Shown here: piece by piece, positions 22,028 to 41,040 of the stretch
Position numbering within the stretch: the first letter of the stretch is position 1
How the letters are laid out: each line of letters begins with the position of its first letter
Origin: Gammaproteobacteria bacterium
Lineage (GTDB): Bacteria; Pseudomonadota; Gammaproteobacteria; Eutrophobiales; Eutrophobiaceae
DNA: 64,000 nucleotides
Assembly (NCBI GenBank): GCA_012103475.1
Contig: WLWS01000001.1
Coordinates: 641,881 to 705,880, forward strand
Direction of reading: 5' to 3'
Translations under genes and position numbers: made by a program
Notes under the pieces: generated by a model
What the model was told of the DNA's origin: nothing
The model's database searches: none
What the model saw: only the letters and a program-made list of their open reading frames with translations

Positions 22028-22320
22028 ACGTGGCCAGGAAAAAAGGCAAACAGAAGCGAAAGAAGGCAAAAGTCACGCCTGCGACAAAAGATAAATGCCT
22101 TTCTGAAAGTGTAAGCGACGCTCTGGAAAAATACTTCAAAGACATGGACGGACATGAACCGGCAAATTTGTATGACTTGATCATAGCTCAGGTAGAAAAG
22201 CCCCTGATTGAAAGTGTGATTGAAAACAGTCGTGGAAACATTTCGCGGGCTGCCCAGGTTCTTGGCCTGAACAGAGCAACACTTCGCAATCGCATGCAAA
22301 AATACGGCATCGATAAGTAA
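22024..22320 (+). CDS. fis: DNA-binding protein Fis
   Basis: 98 aa from the ATG at 22024. The C-terminal [29 protein letters not shown] matches Fis. The ORF-track N-terminal extension overlaps dusB and is not credited. Confidence 0.92.
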
Positions 22321-35225: not shown

Positions 35226-37282
35226 ATGACCAAGCCACAAATCGATAAAAGCGCACTACCGCAGTTCAGTACAATCCAGCCCGCACAAATTCAGGCAAGC
35301 ATAGAAAAGCTAATCTGTGACAACAAGGCTTCGATGGAAAAGTTGCTGGCCGCCAACACAGTCTACAACTGGGAAAATTTGATCCAGGTACTTGAAAATG
35401 ACGCAGACCGACTTAGTCGTGCCTGGTCGCCAATCAATCATCTGCACTCGGTCGCGGATAACGACGAGCTGCGTGAGGCTTATAACGCCTGTCTGCCACC
35501 ACTCACAGAATACGGCACTGAACTGGGACAACATGAAGGGCTGTTCCGTGCCTATCAGCAAATCAGAGATAGCGCCGGCTTCCAGAAACTGCATGCGGCT
35601 CAGCAAAAATCGATCGAAAATGAACTGCGCGACTTTCACTTATCCGGAATTGGTCTCGCAAACGAAGAACGCGAAAGCTATCGCTCGATCAAACAAAAAC
35701 TCTCAAAACTGCAAACACGCTACGAGGAAAACCTTCTCGACGCCACTCAGGCCTGGCAGAAACTTATCGTCGATCAGAAACAGCTGGCAGGGATGCCAGA
35801 GTCGGCTATCGCATTAGCCGCACAAACAGCAGAGAGAGAGAGAAGCAGACAGGCTGGTTGTTAACACTGGATTTCCCCAGCTATCTGCCGGTTATGCAAT
35901 ACGCAGATAATCGCGAATTGCGCGAAGAAATGTATAAGGCTTACGTTACCCGCGCCTCCGAGCAGGCAGCGAATGCGGAGCAGTGGGACAATGGTGAGTT
36001 GATGGTAGAGATTGTTGAGCTACGCCAACAGCTTGCTCAATTACTTGATTTCGACTCTTATGCCGATTATTCATTGGCCAGAAAAATGGCCTCAACACCA
36101 GCGGAAGTTCTTGGCTTCCTTGAGGATCTGGCTGAACGTTCAAAACCAGTCGCTGAAACCGAACTCGCTGAACTGCAACAGTTTGCCCGCGAGCAGTTTC
36201 AAGTTGATGAGCTACAGGCCTGGGATCTTGGCTACTATTCAGAAAAACTACGCGTACATAAATTTGATATTTCTCAGGAGGAGCTGCGCCCCTATTTTCC
36301 CGCCCCAAAAGTTATCGAGGGAATGTTCGCAGTCGTTAAACGTCTTTACGGTATCACCATCAAGGAAGTGGAAGGCATCGACAGTTGGCACGAAGATGTG
36401 CGTTTTTATGAGATTCAGGACGACAGCGGACAACTGCGTGGTAGTTTCTATCTTGATCTCTATGCCCGCCCGCAAAAGCGGGGCGGAGCCTGGATGGATG
36501 AATGCCTGGTGCGCAGATTCGCTGGCAAAAAGTTGCAGACTCCGGTTGCCTATCTGACCTGTAACTTCAGCCCACCAATAGGAAGCGATCCTTCACTGCT
36601 GACACACGATGAAGTAATCACACTATTCCACGAGTTTGGCCATGGTTTACATCATATGTTAACGCTGGTCGATTACCCGGAGGTGTCCGGCATCAATGGG
36701 GTTGCCTGGGATGCAGTCGAGTTACCCAGCCAGTTTATGGAAAACTGGTGCTGGGAACGTGACTCCATTGCCCTTATTTCAGGTCATTATGAAAGTGGCG
36801 TCCCTTTGCCTGATGAGCTTTATGAGAAGATGTTAAAGGCCCGAACCTTTCATTCCGGCATGCAGATGGTCAGACAACTCGAGTTTTCCTTGTTTGATTT
36901 CCGTCTTCACCATAAACAGAAGGTTTCGAACACAGCTGAGATTCAGGCTTTATTGAATCAGGTTCGTGAGCAGGTGGCTGTCGTCCTCCTACCCGAATAC
37001 AATCGATTTCAGCACAGTTTTTCGCATATTTTCGCCGGCGGCTACGCAGCTGGTTATTATAGTTACAAATGGGCCGAAGTATTATCCGCTGATGCCTTTT
37101 CTAAATTCGAAGAAAACGGTATCTTTGACAGAAAAACAGGGGAACAATTTTTGAACTCGATTCTGGAACAGGGTGGATCGCGCGAACCAATGGAATTATT
37201 CATCGAGTTCAGAGGTCGCAAACCTTCTATCGACGCACTCTTGCGTCATTCAGGGATTCTTCCTGAAGAGGCCGCTGCCTGA
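35226..37282 (+). pseudogene. prlC: Oligopeptidase A, interrupted by a frameshift in an (AG)6 tract
   Basis: ORFs 35226-35864 and 35858-37282 together are collinear with E. coli PrlC. The zinc motif HEFGHGLHH is in the second ORF. The frames switch inside AGAGAGAGAGAG (35831-35842). Confidence 0.85.
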
Positions 37283-37283
37283 A

Positions 37284-38057
37284 ATGAAATCAACACTACT
37301 TTTATTCCTGTCCATCTGCTTTACCGGCCCGTTATTGGCGGAGGATGTCTTTATCACCGACAAGTTAAAAGCCGGTTTGCACGAGGACAAATCGCTGGAT
37401 AGCCCGATTGTCAAGATTGTCGCTACCGGCACTCGACTGGAAGTGGTGAAAAAGGAAGATCGACTGACCTATGTGCGCGACGCGGATGGGAGCATGGGCT
37501 GGATTAATAACGACTATCTGATGGCACAGGCACCCACAGGCGCCAACATCGGGACCATGCAGAACCGGGCCGACAATCTGGAAAAACGTCTTAACGAAAG
37601 CCGCGAGACCATTATCACTCTGGAAGCAGAGCTGAAGAATCAGGGCAAAGTCTTGCCTGCTGAAACACGCGAACTACTGGATCTCAAGGCAAGTCATGGT
37701 GAGCTGCAACAACAGTTTAATGCGCAAAAGCTGGAAAATGGTGAATTGCAGGTCGAACTCACGGAACTGCGGAACCGTCTCGGTCAGGACGCCGACACCG
37801 ATGCCTTATACAAACAGATCAAAAGCCTGCAGGAAGATAATAAGACACTGGAGATTAAGCTAGCCAGAACCCTCGAGAAATTCGATGCTGATGCGGCTTC
37901 TGACTCCGGCCTACTCAGCGTCAGCGGCGACAGCTTTTCCCCGGGCATGCGCAATATGAGCATTTATCTGCTGATTACGCTGGTAATTGGCCTGTTTGCC
38001 GGCGCCTACCTGCTTGATATGATTAACCGACGCCGGCACGGCGGTTTTCGTATCTAG
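37284..38057 (+). CDS. SH3-domain membrane protein (YgiM/TIGR04211-like)
   Basis: The start at 37284 (MKSTLLLFL...) gives a signal peptide, a bacterial SH3-like domain (GWINNDYL), a long coiled coil and a C-terminal TM. The ORF track extension overlaps prlC. Confidence 0.7.
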
Positions 38058-38148
38058 CCGGCAAGATTTGCAAGTATTCGGGCTTTCTACTACACTCCTC
38101 GGCCCTGTCGATCAGGCAGACTCAGAAAACATTAAAAGGTTAGTAAAA

Positions 38149-38352
38149 ATGAAGGCAGATACACATCCGACTTACACTGATACTTCAGTCACCTGCAGCT
38201 GCGGAAACGTTTTTTCGACGCGTTCGACTCTGGAAGACAACGATCTCCATATCGATGTCTGTTCACAGTGCCATCCTTTTTACACCGGCAAACAGAAAAT
38301 GCTGGATACCGCCGGTCGGGTTGATAAATTTCGCCGTAAATACGGCATGTAA
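38149..38352 (+). CDS. rpmE: 50S ribosomal protein L31 (zinc-binding type)
   Basis: 67 aa. MKADTHPTY..., a CSCG...[12 protein letters not shown] cysteine pair and the ending RFRRKYG-like are present. The ATG is at 38149. Confidence 0.95.
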
Positions 38353-38383
38353 AACCTTCATCGGGACCCTTCCTGATTTACTA

Positions 38384-38410
38384 AAAAGCGCCTTTATCGG
38401 GCGCTTTTTT
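38384..38410 (+). terminator. Rho-independent terminator after rpmE
   Basis: AAAAGCGCC-TTTATC-GGGCGCTTTTTT forms a GC stem followed by a T6 run. Confidence 0.75.
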
Positions 38411-38419
38411 GCTTATTAC

Positions 38420-39157
38420 TTGCTTTTATTCCTCTGCTCTTTCCCGCATACCAGTAACGCCTGCGATAGTAGGGCCTACGATCGGACCGCGTCGGCACGA
38501 CATATTATCGACGGCGACACGCTTGTCCTCAGCGATGGCAGAAAATTACGTCTGATAGGAATCGACACGCCTGAACTCGCTCGTAAAGGGCGACCGGCCG
38601 AAAGCGGTACGGATGCCGCACGCTTGTATCTGAGCAAGCTGCTAAAGGACAAAGACCGCCTGGGGCTTAAATATGGTCCCGAGCGCAAAGATCGTCATGG
38701 TCGCTTACTGGCCCATCTGTTTCTCGAAGATGGCAGTAATATACAAGCCGGATTACTGCGCGAAGGCTTGGCCTTACCACTGAATATCCCGCCTAACGTT
38801 CTTTTCAGCGACTGCTACGAGGAGCAGATGCTGCTGGCCCGGGCTGCCGGCCGGGGTCTGTGGCAACTCCCGCAGTTTCAAACGATCCGGGCCAAGTCGA
38901 TGCAGCCGGACACTCACGGCTATCGGCTTGTTCATGGTGTAGTCAGTAAACTCGGGTTCAGCGATTCAGCAGTATGGCTTAACCTGAACAAGCATCTCGC
39001 TATCCGAATCAGGCGAAAACACCTCTCATATTTAGCAGGACTGGACCTGAATAATATTATTGGTGCTGAAATTGAAGTACGCGGAGTAATTTATCAAAGG
39101 AATAAACAAATGCGTGTCAGCGTCCGTCATAAAAACGATCTAAAAATACTAAAGTAG
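38420..39157 (+). CDS. Secreted thermonuclease (SNase-like) family protein
   Basis: IIDGDTLVL...LRLIGIDTPE...DRHGRLLAHLF are staphylococcal-nuclease-fold motifs. The start is uncertain: no in-frame ATG follows the rpmE terminator, so TTG at 38420 is assumed. The ORF track starts at 38255, inside rpmE. Confidence 0.7.
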   Translation: MLLFLCSFPHTSNACDSRAYDRTASARHIIDGDTLVLSDGRKLRLIGIDTPELARKGRPAESGTDAARLYLSKLLKDKDRLGLKYGPERKDRHGRLLAHLFLEDGSNIQAGLLREGLALPLNIPPNVLFSDCYEEQMLLARAAGRGLWQLPQFQTIRAKSMQPDTHGYRLVHGVVSKLGFSDSAVWLNLNKHLAIRIRRKHLSYLAGLDLNNIIGAEIEVRGVIYQRNKQMRVSVRHKNDLKILK

Positions 39158-39258
39158 AGACAAAATTGAAGCACTTTCAGTGCATGACTTAGCCGCCCTT
39201 ATTGAGGTGTTTTCTAACATAAAAAGCTTAAGTCATTGCAATGTCGAGGAATCAAAAA

Positions 39259-39293
39259 CTATCCACAAATTCTGTGGATAAGTTTGTGGATGT
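39259..39293. promoter_or_regulatory. Cluster of three DnaA boxes
   Basis: CTATCCACA (39259-39267, 8/9 to TTATCCACA), a 5-nt spacer, TGTGGATAA (39273-39281, perfect reverse box), a 3-nt spacer, then TGTGGATGT (39285-39293, 7/9). It lies in an ORF-free AT-rich spacer. Confidence 0.55.
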
Positions 39294-39464
39294 AATGCTA
39301 ACAGAACGCTCAAATCAGCGTTTTTACTGGATATTTAACAAAACTGTCATTTTTTGTGCAATTATTATTAACCTATATTAATCAGACAGTTATACTATTT
39401 TTATAGTCTAAAACGCACCTTACTTAAGATGCGATCTGAACTTCGATCAAAAATTGGCTTTCAC

Positions 39465-39473
39465 TGTGCATAA
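39465..39473. promoter_or_regulatory. Isolated DnaA box (TTATGCACA in reverse)
   Basis: TGTGCATAA fits TGTGNATAA exactly. Two GATC sites (39432, 39444) lie just upstream of it. Confidence 0.35.
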
Positions 39474-39500
39474 AATTGTTTGTCAAGCATTTATTTTAAA

Positions 39501-39527
39501 AAACTTTTGAACAAAACCGGTATCTGT
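39501..39527 (+). promoter_or_regulatory. Candidate ECF sigmaE/AlgU-type promoter
   Basis: AAACTT (39501-39506), a 16-nt spacer, then TCTGT (39523-39527). The consensus is GAACTT-N16/17-TCTGA. Confidence 0.4.
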
Positions 39528-39533
39528 CTGTCG

Positions 39534-39656
39534 AAAACAACAGATAGCAAATTTCTCGTTCCTCCTCTAGAACGTGACAGAACCCCGGTCTCCCCAGCCG
39601 GGTAATCTTGGCCCCGGTTACCTCCCCCTTAAATTAAGCCGGGGCCTTCTTTTTTT
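39534..39656 (+). ncRNA. Predicted ~120-nt small RNA convergent with engB (Spot 42 / ErsA positional analogue)
   Basis: It is bounded by the sigmaE-type promoter and an intrinsic terminator: GGCCCCGG 39610-39617 pairs with CCGGGGCC 39639-39646, followed by TTCTTTTTTT. There is no ORF. C/U-rich anti-SD-like stretches lie at 39559-39567 and 39620-39628. Confidence 0.4.
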
Positions 39657-40248
39657 CATCGAGCATCCAGGCATCAAGTGCCTGCACAAGCTCATCAACA
39701 CCGGTTTTTTTTAATACAGAGAACAATTGCACGCTATGAGCACTGGATCCGAATTGATTCTGCGCTCGCTGCAGCGCCTTTCGGCTTGCGCCAAAGGCCA
39801 GTTTGTCCGATTTATTCAGTAATATGTGAACGGCAAGACCGGCTGATTCACACCAGGAGAGCATTTGCTCGTCAAACTCCGTCAAGCCCCGTCTAATATC
39901 CGTAATCAACACCACCCCGGCTAAACAACGCCGTGTTTGAAAATACTCGCCGAGAGTTTCAGCCCAATGCGCCTGTACTTTCTCCGGAACCTTTGCATAC
40001 CCATAACCCGGTAAATCAACCAGACGTATCTCCTCATTCACCGGAAAAAAATTGATTAGCTGGGTTCGGCCCGGTGTTTTACTGATTTTTGCCAGTCGTT
40101 TCTGCCCGGTCAGTGCATTAATGACGCTTGATTTACCGGAATTAGAGCGACCTGCAAAAGCGACTTCACGGCCGCTGTCCGGCATCAACTGCGCCAGAGT
40201 GTGGGCACTGGTTTCATAACTAGCCTGTCGATATCGATTATTGAGCAT
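39634..40248 (-). CDS. engB: Ribosome biogenesis GTP-binding protein EngB/YihA
   Basis: 204 aa. It has G1 GRSNSGKSS, G3 DLPGYG and G4 NKSD motifs. Confidence 0.93.
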   Translation of the reverse strand: MLNNRYRQASYETSAHTLAQLMPDSGREVAFAGRSNSGKSSVINALTGQKRLAKISKTPGRTQLINFFPVNEEIRLVDLPGYGYAKVPEKVQAHWAETLGEYFQTRRCLAGVVLITDIRRGLTEFDEQMLSWCESAGLAVHILLNKSDKLAFGASRKALQRAQNQFGSSAHSVQLFSVLKKTGVDELVQALDAWMLDEKKKAPA

Positions 40249-40425
40249 ATCTGCCGAAACCAGTTGTAATTCTCATTGCGCAAAATTTCCTTTTATTCTC
40301 GTCCACTACTCGTCATTTTTTCGGTAAGATACCCGTGCTGGGGCAAGGGCTGTTCATATATGAATCAGCCTCACTATACCGTCGCCGGCTGAGATATAGC
40401 CAGATGAATTAAAGGAAACCAAGGC

Positions 40426-41040
40426 ATGCTAAGAAATTTCTGTTTTTTAATGAGTGTATTATTACCGCTTTTTGGTGGTTCTGTGCTGGCAAATGGTGAT
40501 ATCGCTGCCGGTAAATCAAAGTCTGTCACTTGCAGTGCCTGTCACGGTCAGGATGGTAATGGCGTAGAGAGTCTGCCAATGCAGCCCCGGCTCGCAGGTC
40601 AGCACGCAGAATATACCGCCAAACAGCTACGGGACTATCAATCGAAGGCCCGCGAAAACGCCATCATGGCACCGATGATTGCTGCACTCAGTGAAGAGGA
40701 TATTAACGACATTTCAGCTTACTATGCCAGCCTGAAAGGCACCATTGGCTCGAGTTCTGCGGAACTGCTGGAAACAGGTGAAACACTCTATCGGGCTGGT
40801 AATGCGGAAACAGGCCTTGCCGCCTGCATGGCCTGTCATGGTCCTTCCGGCCGGGGCAACCCGGCAGCCAAATACCCCGCCCTGAGTGGTCAATGGGCAG
40901 AATATACGAAGATTCAGCTAATGGCCTTTAAATCCGAGACCCGTAGCAACGATTTGAGTGCTGTAATGCGTGATGTCGCAACGAAAATGTCTAAAGAAGA
41001 GATTGAAGCTGTCAGCAATTACATTCAGGGACTGCACTAA
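40426..41040 (+). CDS. cc4: Dihaem cytochrome c4
   Basis: 204 aa. It has a signal peptide and two CxxCH motifs (CSACHG, CMACHG), each followed by a distal Met region. Confidence 0.9.
   Translation: MLRNFCFLMSVLLPLFGGSVLANGDIAAGKSKSVTCSACHGQDGNGVESLPMQPRLAGQHAEYTAKQLRDYQSKARENAIMAPMIAALSEEDINDISAYYASLKGTIGSSSAELLETGETLYRAGNAETGLAACMACHGPSGRGNPAAKYPALSGQWAEYTKIQLMAFKSETRSNDLSAVMRDVATKMSKEEIEAVSNYIQGLH

What the first reader, a model, noticed from the sequence alone, without database searches (positions are those of the whole stretch)
39259..39473. Tight DnaA-box cluster in a spacer between two convergent gene ends
Seen in sequence:
- CTATCCACA, then aattc, then TGTGGATAA, then gtt, then TGTGGATGT (39259-39293). 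That is one forward box followed by two tandem reverse boxes, and the middle box matches TTATCCACA perfectly.
- A further consensus-compatible box, TGTGCATAA, lies at 39465-39473.
- Two GATC sites lie at 39432 and 39444.
- A very AT-rich stretch spans 39340-39410.
- Boxes 1 and 2 also form the palindrome TATCCACA-N5-TGTGGATA.
- The region lies between the 3' ends of the nuclease gene and engB, so it is not an ordinary promoter.

Established knowledge, from memory and worth verifying: E. coli DnaA-reactivating sequences (DARS1/2) have a core of three DnaA boxes with one inverted relative to the other two. datA is also a non-origin box cluster.

Inference: this could be a DARS/datA-like DnaA-regulatory locus, or a DnaA-controlled element upstream of the candidate sRNA.
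Basis: partly seen in the sequence, partly recalled or inferred. Interest (0 to 1): 0.6.

Follow-up and report, generated by a model that had tools for sequence, protein, structure and literature searches.

The report
DARS-type DnaA recharging site beside engB
The three DnaA-binding sites are real, unique in this genome and strongly conserved, and they form the core of a roughly 215-bp element built like the E. coli DARS sites that recharge the replication initiator DnaA, so this is a candidate replication-timing element in an uncultured gammaproteobacterial lineage whose activity is untested.

Summary
CTATCCACA-5 bp-TGTGGATAA-3 bp-TGTGGATGT (39259-39293) is the only 9-5-9-3-9 DnaA-box trio in the 4.19-Mb assembly.

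Its orientation and spacing are those of the E. coli DARS1 and DARS2 cores and differ from datA. It is kept in all six genomes of the genus and across the family. Its spacers vary, and box II varies at the consensus N position.

The trio is the left end of a larger element:
- a Fis-like site at +86;
- an IHF-like site at +121;

In 109 trio loci from Gamma/Betaproteobacteria, in different gene contexts (priA, rpmE, xseA, uvrB, engB), these sites recur at the same offsets. Mirror controls give 1-3 hits. A trio with up to 2 mismatches occurs in 314 of 401 class genomes. The reversed pattern occurs once.

The locus lies 59-98 kb from the GC-skew trough and the dnaA-dnaN spacer, so it is not oriC. 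The GATC sites are neither enriched nor conserved.

The host encodes DnaA, Hda, IHF, Fis and DiaA. Its DnaA has Ala where E. coli needs Gln208 for DARS activity, so ADP release is inferred, not shown.

Verdict: a DARS2-like variant of a known kind, of moderate interest.

The parts
39228..39233 (+). TTAAGT, at offset -31 from box I. It is a one-mismatch version of a CTAASY motif that recurs at exactly -31. Its function is unknown.
   Evidence: CTAA[CG][TC] sits at exactly -31 in 15 of 109 trio loci and at +51 in 8 of 109, and is scattered elsewhere. The block cTTAAg-N4-TTGC is conserved in the family alignment.
39259..39267 (+). DnaA box I (CTATCCACA), oriented opposite to boxes II and III.
   Evidence: It is TTATCCACA in the other five genus genomes and in nearly all family members.
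39273..39281 (-). DnaA box II (TGTGGATAA on the + strand, a perfect TTATCCACA on the - strand), 5 bp from box I.
   Evidence: Within the genus it reads TGTGGATAA, TGTGCATAA, TGTGTGTAA or TGTGGATAT, so it varies mainly at the N of TTATNCACA. The 5-bp spacer varies in sequence but not in length.
39285..39293 (-). DnaA box III (TGTGGATGT), 3 bp from box II. Boxes II and III together form a 'double DnaA box'.
   Evidence: TGTGGAtga is conserved in the family. Pairs of boxes 2-3 bp apart are the preferred DnaA target in vivo in E. coli (PMC11317965).
39345..39359 (.). Fis-like site TGTCATTTTTTGTGC, at offset +86. It has 1 mismatch to GNNYAWWWWWTRNNC (first G replaced by T).
   Evidence: A match with at most 1 mismatch lies at +84..+88 in 56 of 109 trio loci, 46 of them at exactly +86. 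The mirror control gives 1. Exact matches occur only in the +80 bin.
39380..39392 (+). IHF-like site AATCAGACAGTTA, at offset +121. It has 1 mismatch to WATCAANNNNTTR and lies inside the AT-rich stretch.
   Evidence: A match with at most 1 mismatch is found in 63 of 109 loci, 59 of them at +118..+122. The mirror control gives 3. Exact matches occur only in the +110..+129 bins.
39465..39473 (-). Distal DnaA box IV (TGTGCATAA), at offset +206, in the same orientation as boxes II and III.
   Evidence: It is invariant in the genus and reads TGTGnATAAa in the family. A match with at most 1 mismatch is found in 76 of 109 loci, mostly at +203..+206. The mirror control gives 2. E. coli DARS2 box V sits at +211 in the opposite orientation.
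39509..39656 (+). Neighbouring feature, not part of the element: a sigmaE-type promoter (GAACAA-N16-TCGAA, 39509-39535) and a small RNA of about 115 nt with a terminator that overlaps the engB 3' end.
   Evidence: gAAC...TC..A and the hairpins CCCGGtCTCCCCAGCCGGG plus terminator are conserved in the family. There is a weak Rfam anti-hemB match (E = 0.017). The earlier finding e1-2781312 covers it.

Best explanation
The SNase-engB spacer carries a DARS-type DnaA-regulatory element of about 215 bp (39259-39473).

Shown here: the sites, their geometry and their conservation.

Inferred mechanism:
1. DnaA binds the perfect box II and recruits further DnaA to box III (head-to-tail, 3-bp gap) and to the inverted box I (head-to-head, 5-bp gap).
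2. Fis at +86 and IHF at +121 bend the flanking AT-rich DNA back onto this complex.
3. The distal box IV at +206 adds a further DnaA contact, possibly for feedback.
4. By analogy with E. coli DARS2, the head-to-head complex releases ADP from ADP-DnaA. Apo-DnaA then rebinds ATP, so the locus raises the level of initiation-competent DnaA.

The element is a self-contained cis-acting module. It is not tied to its neighbouring genes and is separate from the sigmaE-type sRNA that follows it.
For: Geometry and orientation
- They are identical to E. coli DARS1 (TTATCCACT attcc TGTGGATAA cca TGTGTATTA) and to the DARS2 core (TTATTCACC ttttc TGTGGATAG agt TGTGAAGAA).
- They fit the published definition: box I opposite to boxes II and III, the same spacing in both DARS, and a 5-bp gap between boxes I and II.

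Uniqueness
- It is the only such site in the genome.

Selection on boxes and spacing rather than on sequence
- The trio is kept in 6 of 6 genus genomes and across the family, while the spacers vary.
- Box II varies at the N position of the consensus.

Fixed-offset accessory sites in 109 independent loci
- Fis-like at +86: 56 loci, control 1.
- IHF-like at +118..+122: 63 loci, control 3.
- Box IV at about +205: 76 loci, control 2.
- The window has all three at the modal offsets.
- E. coli DARS2 has the same parts over the same span: IHF-like sites at +93 and +109, a Fis consensus at +145, box V at +211.

Independence from neighbours
- The same module lies beside priA, rpmE, xseA, uvrB or engB in different lineages.

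Distribution
- 314 of 401 class genomes have a trio, usually 1-3 copies. The reversed control gives 1 hit.

Host factors
- The host encodes DnaA with E. coli-type DNA-contact residues (R399, D433, H434, T435, H439) and Leu290.
- It also encodes Hda, IhfB, Fis and DiaA.
Against: - No binding or nucleotide-release data exist for this or any non-E. coli element that I could find.
- The host DnaA has Ala at the position of E. coli Gln208, and Q208A impairs DARS-dependent ADP release in E. coli (PMC6868365). Most trio-bearing genomes sampled also lack Gln there, while a congener has it.
- The Fis-then-IHF order is the reverse of the E. coli order as I read it from consensus matches.
- Box IV is inverted relative to E. 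coli box V.
- The window's Fis-like and IHF-like sites each have one mismatch.
- The locus is origin-proximal (59-98 kb from the skew trough and dnaA). E. coli DARS1 and DARS2 are mid-replichore (PMC5742627).
Confidence: 0.6

Rival explanations
1. The locus is a DnaA sink, or a datA-like inactivation site. It is a high-affinity, origin-proximal DnaA/IHF platform that titrates DnaA or promotes DnaA-ATP hydrolysis after initiation, rather than reactivating it.
For: - The locus lies 2-9% of genome length from dnaA in G000 and in five of six complete or near-complete relatives.
- An IHF-like site lies next to the DnaA boxes, as in datA.
- Gln208, needed for DARS activity in E. coli, is absent from the host DnaA.
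- DnaA boxes are enriched near oriC in E. coli, which has been read as titration (PMC12371093).
Against: - The box geometry is that of DARS, not datA. datA has a direct pair with a 3-bp gap and a head-to-head pair with a 3-bp gap, and no 9-5-9-3-9 trio.
- The strict 5-bp head-to-head spacing kept across hundreds of genomes is not needed for simple titration.
- One relative has the element 680 kb from dnaA.
Confidence: 0.17
2. The locus is a transcriptional operator. DnaA, with IHF and Fis, bound here regulates a nearby promoter: the sigmaE-type sRNA 250 bp downstream, or in other lineages priA, rpmE, xseA or uvrB. This would couple replication status to gene expression.
For: - Box IV lies about 70 bp upstream of the predicted sRNA start.
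- In other lineages the trio lies 35-235 bp upstream of replication or repair genes: priA, xseA and uvrB.
- E. coli DARS1 overlaps the uvrB regulatory region, and DnaA regulates uvrB and polA (PMC11317965).
- Oxalobacteraceae copies are followed directly by a strong -35/-10 pair.
Against: - The module keeps its internal offsets while its neighbours, and its distance and orientation to them, change.
- In this genome no protein gene starts in the spacer, because both flanking genes end there.
- The sRNA hairpin motif accompanies only 2 of 110 trio loci, while box IV is present in about 70%.
- A dual role cannot be excluded.
Confidence: 0.12
3. The locus is a replication origin, primary or secondary: DnaA boxes, an IHF site, a Fis site and an AT-rich tract acting as oriC.
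For: The parts list resembles an origin: four DnaA boxes, IHF-like and Fis-like sites, and a 79% AT stretch.
Against: - The cumulative GC-skew minimum is a trough at 740-780 kb on contig C17, and the locus is at 681 kb.
- The densest cluster of DnaA boxes with at most 1 mismatch in the assembly is the AT-rich dnaA-dnaN spacer at C17:778,934-779,084.
- Many genomes carry 2-5 copies of the trio.
- GATC is not enriched.
- The AT-rich stretch is accounted for by the Fis-like and IHF-like sites, and I did not look for repeated 13-mer-type unwinding elements.
Confidence: 0.03
4. The cluster is a chance occurrence, or the box I/II palindrome is merely an intrinsic terminator on the minus strand.
For: The terminator scan lists TTATCCACAGAATTTGTGGATAG followed by TTTTTGATTC on the minus strand.
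Against: - The hairpin has only 3 G-C pairs.
- The T-run is absent in relatives, where the flank reads for example ataTTGATCTTG or cggCTGATCTGT.
- No minus-strand gene ends there.
- Conservation and genome-wide uniqueness rule out chance.
Confidence: 0.01

Closest known systems
E. coli DARS2 (DnaA-reactivating sequence 2, rppH-mutH spacer; activated by IHF and Fis)
   Same: - Three-box core with box I inverted, a 5-bp and a 3-bp spacer, and even the common ttttc-type first spacer in relatives.
- Non-coding location outside oriC.
- An IHF-type site about 90-120 bp from the start of box I.
- A Fis-type site, and a further DnaA box at about +206 to +211.
- An overall span of about 215-256 bp (PMC4245941, PMC11724364).
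   Different: - The order here is core, Fis (+86), IHF (+121). In E. coli my consensus scan gives core, IHF (+93 and +109), Fis (+145 and beyond).
- The distal box is inverted relative to E. coli box V.
- The core boxes here are closer to consensus than those of DARS2.
- The genomic neighbours differ (engB and an sRNA rather than mutH).
- The locus is origin-proximal rather than about 20% of the chromosome away.
- The host DnaA has Ala at residue 208.
E. coli DARS1 (bioD-uvrB spacer, 101 bp)
   Same: - Identical 9-5-9-3-9 geometry, with a perfect box II.
- A trio upstream of uvrB in Pasteurellaceae (Rodentibacter) turned up in the same pattern scan.
   Different: DARS1 works without IHF or Fis, and my scan finds no IHF-like or Fis-like site at the +86 and +121 offsets. 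The element here has both, plus a distal box.
E. coli datA (DnaA-inactivating locus, glyVXY-queG spacer)
   Same: A non-origin cluster of DnaA boxes with an IHF site. It lies nearer to the origin than the DARS sites do.
   Different: datA has no inverted box at a 5-bp gap beside a direct pair at a 3-bp gap. Its head-to-head pair is 3 bp apart. Its function, ATP hydrolysis, is the opposite of DARS.
ColE1/pBR322 origin DnaA-box cluster (TTATCCACAGAATCAGGGGATAACGCAGGAAAGAA, recalled from memory)
   Same: The same 9-5-9-3-9 layout. From memory, this plasmid sequence was the first shown to release ADP from DnaA in vitro.
   Different: It is a plasmid context, and its boxes II and III are more degenerate. 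I did not check it with any tool here.

Membership tests
DARS (DnaA-reactivating sequence) core | Three 9-bp DnaA boxes, with box I oriented opposite to boxes II and III. | tested here: met
   Boxes at 39259-67 (+), 39273-81 (-) and 39285-93 (-). Definition from PMC5742627 and PMC6868365.
DARS (DnaA-reactivating sequence) core | Fixed spacing: 5 bp between boxes I and II and 3 bp between boxes II and III, as in both DARS1 and DARS2. | tested here: met
   The window's spacers are aattc and gtt. The same lengths are seen in E. coli DARS1 and DARS2, read from NC_000913. The lengths are invariant in all relatives while the sequence varies.
DARS (DnaA-reactivating sequence) core | Intergenic, non-origin location. 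| tested here: met
   The locus lies between two gene 3' ends. It is 59-98 kb from the GC-skew trough and the dnaA-dnaN spacer.
DARS (DnaA-reactivating sequence) core | Promotes ADP dissociation from ADP-DnaA, and stimulates initiation when supplied in excess. | not testable with these tools
   This needs biochemistry or genetics. I found no report for any non-E. coli element in the held library.
DARS2-type (regulated DARS) | IHF-binding and Fis-binding sites at fixed distances from the core. | tested here: met
   Consensus-level matches at +121 (IHF, 1 mismatch) and +86 (Fis, 1 mismatch). The positions are shared by 58% and 51% of 109 loci, against 3 and 1 in mirror controls. The order differs from E. 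coli. Binding itself was not tested.
DARS2-type (regulated DARS) | An additional DnaA box about 210 bp from box I (box V in E. coli). | tested here: met
   TGTGCATAA at +206. E. coli has TTATCCACA at +211, in the opposite orientation.
DARS system (host side) | DnaA Gln208, required in E. coli for the head-to-head ADP release. | tested here: not met
   The host DnaA reads SERFVADMV, with Ala at position 208. A, S, T, G or V predominates in the other trio-bearing genomes, and Gln is found in a congener. Leu290, Phe239 and Lys243 are conserved.
DARS system (host side) | The host has the DnaA-ATP/ADP cycle and the accessory factors Hda, IHF, Fis and DiaA. | tested here: met
   tblastn with E. coli proteins gave: Hda 44% identity (C8), Fis 45% (C17:663973-664194, about 22093-22314 in the window), IhfB N-terminus 70% (C3), DiaA 50% (C8).
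DARS system (host side) | Mid-replichore chromosomal position, as for DARS1 and DARS2 in E. coli and its relatives. | tested here: not met
   The locus is about 97 kb (2.3% of the assembly) from dnaA here. In relatives the distance is 42-226 kb in five and 680 kb in one.
datA | The datA box arrangement (direct pair of boxes 2 and 3, an IHF site, box 7) that promotes DnaA-ATP hydrolysis. | tested here: not met
   The datA sequence read from NC_000913 has a different geometry.
oriC | Location at the GC-skew switch, with an array of DnaA boxes next to an unwinding element. | tested here: not met
   The skew trough is at 740-780 kb and the locus is at 681 kb. The best box array is the dnaA-dnaN spacer.

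The most novel reading that the evidence does not exclude
The 215-bp module (trio, Fis site at +86, IHF site at +120, distal box at about +205) would be the ancestral, near-universal DnaA-cycle element of Gamma/Betaproteobacteria, and of some neighbouring classes. E. coli DARS2 would then be a rearranged derivative.

Most carriers, this genome included, have DnaA with Ala or Ser at the position of E. coli Gln208. So one of two things would follow:
- the Gln208-based head-to-head model of ADP release is an enterobacterial special case; or
- the ancestral job of the module is not nucleotide exchange, for example a dosage-sensitive, origin-proximal DnaA, IHF and Fis timing device.
Probability: 0.25. 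Interest if true: 0.65.

Novelty: new variant of a known kind. Interest (0 to 1): 0.5.

Why it matters
DARS sites are one arm of the switch that sets when a bacterium starts copying its chromosome. Their function has been shown only in E. coli, and the published conservation of the DARS2 core with its IHF and Fis sites covers eight close relatives (Kasho 2014, Fig. S10A).

This locus, and the comparison it prompted, show a position-precise DnaA, Fis and IHF module in about three quarters of sampled Gammaproteobacteria (GTDB sense, Burkholderiales included). Several experimentally tractable genera carry it.

That makes two questions directly testable:
- Is DnaA recharging by DNA a general mechanism?
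- Does it really depend on Gln208?

For annotating this genome, it explains a 215-bp conserved non-coding block and separates it from the neighbouring stress-controlled small RNA.

Tried and rejected
- Rfam scan of 38000-41000 at E <= 1: nothing over the trio. The only nearby match is a weak anti-hemB hit on the downstream sRNA.
- Terminator reading of the box I/II palindrome: rejected, because the T-run is not conserved.
- oriC reading: rejected by GC skew and by the box density at dnaA-dnaN. A box group at C17:716,669-716,768 appears to lie in coding sequence; I judged this by eye and did not annotate it. No window of 400 bp in the assembly holds four or more exact TTWTNCACA boxes.
- Second DARS in this genome: none found with up to 6 mismatches. 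The assembly is only 87% complete, so one could be missing.
- E. coli polA promoter as a possible ortholog, since engB and polA are neighbours in E. coli: it has only a double box and no inverted box I.
- mutH, rppH and ygdQ neighbours among the 120 trio loci: none. I therefore could not bridge to the enterobacterial DARS2 through synteny.
- Fujimitsu et al. 2009, the paper that defined DARS, is not held. Its content is cited only through later papers.
- Literature searches for DARS function outside E. coli, or for DnaA boxes at priA or rpmE: nothing relevant.

Full report
**What is there**

- Box I: CTATCCACA, 39259-39267.
- Spacer aattc, then box II: TGTGGATAA, 39273-39281. It is a perfect DnaA box read on the minus strand.
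- Spacer gtt, then box III: TGTGGATGT, 39285-39293. It has two mismatches, both in the first two, weakly specified positions.
- A further box, TGTGCATAA, at 39465-39473.

The spacer lies between two gene ends. An SNase-like gene on the + strand ends at 39157, and engB on the - strand ends at 39634.

Two details need correcting. The GATC sites are at 39433 and 39445, one base off. Two in 476 bp is the window's average density (4.27 per kb), and they are not conserved in the genus. The AT-rich stretch is real: 78.9% AT, in the top 0.1% of 71-bp windows.

**Is it more than chance?**

The window is C17:641881-705880 of a 4.19-Mb, 17-contig, 46% GC assembly.
- Single DnaA boxes are no commoner than composition predicts: 34 perfect against 39 expected.
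- Three ATCCACA cores within 150 bp occur only here. My estimate of the expected number of triples within 40 bp is about 0.007.
- Against the full 9-5-9-3-9 pattern the locus has 3 mismatches. The next best site has 7, no better than the reversed-pattern control.

So the genome has exactly one such site. The assembly is 87% complete, so a second copy could be missing.

**Not the origin**

- dnaA is at C17:777,573-778,922.
- Cumulative GC skew bottoms in a trough at 740-780 kb.
- The AT-rich dnaA-dnaN spacer (778,934-779,084) has the highest density of boxes with at most 1 mismatch in the assembly.

The finding sits at 681,139, which is 59-98 kb away and still in the negative-skew arm.

**Conservation**

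A DNA search of 60 relatives found two conserved islands about 310 bp apart. One is the trio, at 85-97% identity even in other families. The other is the 3' part of a small RNA next to engB.

All six genomes of the genus keep the trio. Box II reads TGTGGATAA, TGTGCATAA, TGTGTGTAA or TGTGGATAT, so it changes mainly at the N of TTATNCACA. That is what selection for DnaA binding predicts.

Across the family the consensus is TTATCCACA-N5-TGTGGATAA-N3-TGTGGAtga. The spacer sequences vary and the spacer lengths do not.

**Geometry equals DARS**

Reading the E. coli K-12 record gives:
- DARS1: TTATCCACT attcc TGTGGATAA cca TGTGTATTA.
- DARS2 core: TTATTCACC ttttc TGTGGATAG agt TGTGAAGAA.

The literature defines the DARS core by these features (PMC5742627, PMC6868365):
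- three boxes, with box I opposite to boxes II and III;
- the same spacing in both DARS;
- a 5-bp gap between boxes I and II that suits a head-to-head DnaA dimer.

datA has a different layout. Pairs of boxes 2-3 bp apart, like boxes II and III here, are the preferred DnaA target in vivo in E. coli (PMC11317965).

**A larger module**

They came from Xanthomonadales, Woeseiaceae, Ectothiorhodospiraceae, Legionella, Pseudomonas, Nitrosomonas, Rhodocyclaceae, Oxalobacteraceae, Pasteurellaceae and others.

I aligned 109 of them on box I without gaps and scanned for consensus sites, using the mirror-image upstream interval as control.

| Site | Loci with a match (at most 1 mismatch) | Offset from the start of box I | Mirror control |
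|---|---|---|---|
| Fis-type, GNNYAWWWWWTRNNC | 56 | +84..+88 (46 at +86) | 1 |
| IHF-type, WATCAANNNNTTR | 63 | +118..+122 (59 of the 63) | 3 |
| Fourth DnaA box, same orientation as II and III | 76 | mostly +203..+206 | 2 |

The window carries all three at the modal offsets:
- TGTCATTTTTTGTGC at +86 (39345-39359);
- AATCAGACAGTTA at +121 (39380-39392);
- TGTGCATAA at +206.

E. coli DARS2 has the same parts over the same span, counted the same way:
- IHF-like sites at +93 and +109, next to the PciI site that the authors place beside IBS1-2;
- a Fis consensus at +145;
- box V at +211.

The Fis/IHF order is reversed there, and box V has the opposite orientation.

**Independence from neighbours, and distribution**

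The module's neighbours differ by lineage:
- priA upstream region in 22 of 120 loci;
- rpmE;
- xseA in betaproteobacteria;
- uvrB in a Pasteurellaceae genome, which is the DARS1 position;
- engB plus the sRNA in this family.

Only 2 of 110 loci carry the sRNA hairpin motif downstream. About 70% carry box IV. Box IV therefore belongs to the module, not to the sRNA promoter.

In an even sample of the class, 314 of 401 genomes have a trio with at most 2 mismatches, usually 1-3 copies. The reversed pattern gives a single hit. In a phylum-wide sample 78 of 151 genomes have one, with zero control hits. Outside the class the hits are concentrated in a few families.

**Host side**

- DnaA is 62% identical to E. 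coli DnaA. The DNA-contact residues R399, D433, H434, T435 and H439 are unchanged, as are Leu290, Phe239, Lys243 and Arg285.
- Hda, IhfB, Fis and DiaA homologues are present. The ATP/ADP cycle and the DARS2 cofactors are therefore plausible.
- One feature fails. E. coli Gln208, required for DARS-dependent ADP release (PMC6868365), is Ala here.
- In 30 other genomes of the class, residue 208 is mostly Ala, Ser, Thr, Gly or Val whether or not a trio is present. A congener has Gln.

This is the main reason for holding confidence in the nucleotide-exchange step at about 0.6. Confidence that this is a DnaA-binding member of the conserved module is much higher.

**Position**

The locus is about 97 kb from dnaA here. 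In complete or near-complete relatives the distances are 42, 105, 107, 148, 226 and 680 kb. It is mostly origin-proximal, unlike the mid-replichore E. coli DARS sites (PMC5742627). This may simply reflect the origin-proximal position of engB. It also keeps a titration or datA-like reading alive.

**Rivals**

- A DnaA sink or datA-like site (0.17) fits the position and the missing Gln208, but not the geometry.
- A transcriptional operator (0.12) fits the promoter-proximal copies elsewhere. It does not fit the constant internal offsets with changing neighbours, nor a spacer bounded by two gene ends.
- An origin (0.03) is contradicted by GC skew.
- Chance or a terminator (0.01) is contradicted by conservation.

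**Known or new**

- DARS is a known kind.
- Fujimitsu et al. [quoted passage not shown]
- Kasho et al. 2014 showed the DARS2 core, IBS and FBS conserved in eight E. coli-proximal species.
- I found no report of function, or of this Fis-then-IHF-then-box layout, outside that group.

I therefore class the locus as a variant of a known kind.

After I had fixed my reading, notes from other agents in this scan turned out to describe the same module in other genomes. They agree with my counts, but they are not independent evidence.

**Limits**

- Everything about binding and activity is inferred from sequence.
- The paper that defined DARS could not be read.
- The organism is known only as an uncultured gammaproteobacterium. 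Its closest named relatives in the scan are labelled Ectothiorhodospiraceae or simply Gammaproteobacteria.

Noticed in passing
window 39509-39656: A sigmaE-type promoter (GAACAA-N16-TCGAA) is followed by a small RNA of about 115 nt. The RNA has C-rich loops (CUCCCC, CCUCCCCC) and a terminator that overlaps the engB 3' end. It is conserved across the family, always 310-327 bp after the trio. It occupies the position that Spot 42 has in E. coli (spf lies between polA and yihA/engB).
   Followed up: partly
window 39171-39240: An imperfect hairpin follows the SNase gene. Its right arm (CTTAAGTCATTGC) overlaps a motif, CTAASY, that sits at exactly -31 from box I in 15 of 109 unrelated trio loci and at +51 in 8. 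This may be an unrecognised further site of the module.
   Followed up: partly
G000 C17:778,934-779,084 (outside the window): The AT-rich dnaA-dnaN spacer holds the densest group of near-consensus DnaA boxes in the assembly and lies in the GC-skew trough. It is the probable oriC. No classic gidA-type or rpmH-type origin cluster was seen.
   Followed up: partly
window 35226-37282: Oligopeptidase A (Peptidase_M3 with its TOP_N domain) is split into two ORFs of 212 and 474 aa that meet at about 35858-35864. This is either a frameshift or an assembly error.
   Followed up: no
window 38068-38352 and 38255-39157: The listed rpmE (L31) ORF and the SNase-like ORF overlap by about 100 bp in different frames. 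The L31 domain starts at residue 28 of its ORF and the SNase domain at residue 97 of its ORF. The mechanically listed start codons may therefore be too far upstream for both ORFs.
   Followed up: no
L036 (E. coli NC_000913) about 2455-2489: The E. coli DARS2 region contains a second unit with the same 9-5-9-3-9 geometry (TTATCCCAG ctttc TGTGGATAA cat GGTGTAAGA), about 320 bp from the functional core. It coincides with the strongest DARS2 ChIP peak listed in PMC11317965.
   Followed up: no
L092, L102, L109, L113, L130, L155 (Oxalobacteraceae and related loci): In these betaproteobacterial copies the trio is followed within about 10 bp by a strong sigma70-type promoter (CTTGACA, about 17 bp, then TAnnnT) pointing away from it. 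DnaA may also act as an operator protein there.
   Followed up: no
DnaA of G000 (L001 1162-2511) and G004 (L183): Residue 208 (E. coli numbering) is Ala in this genome and Gln in a genome of the same genus. The position that is critical for DARS function in E. coli therefore changes within one genus.
   Followed up: partly
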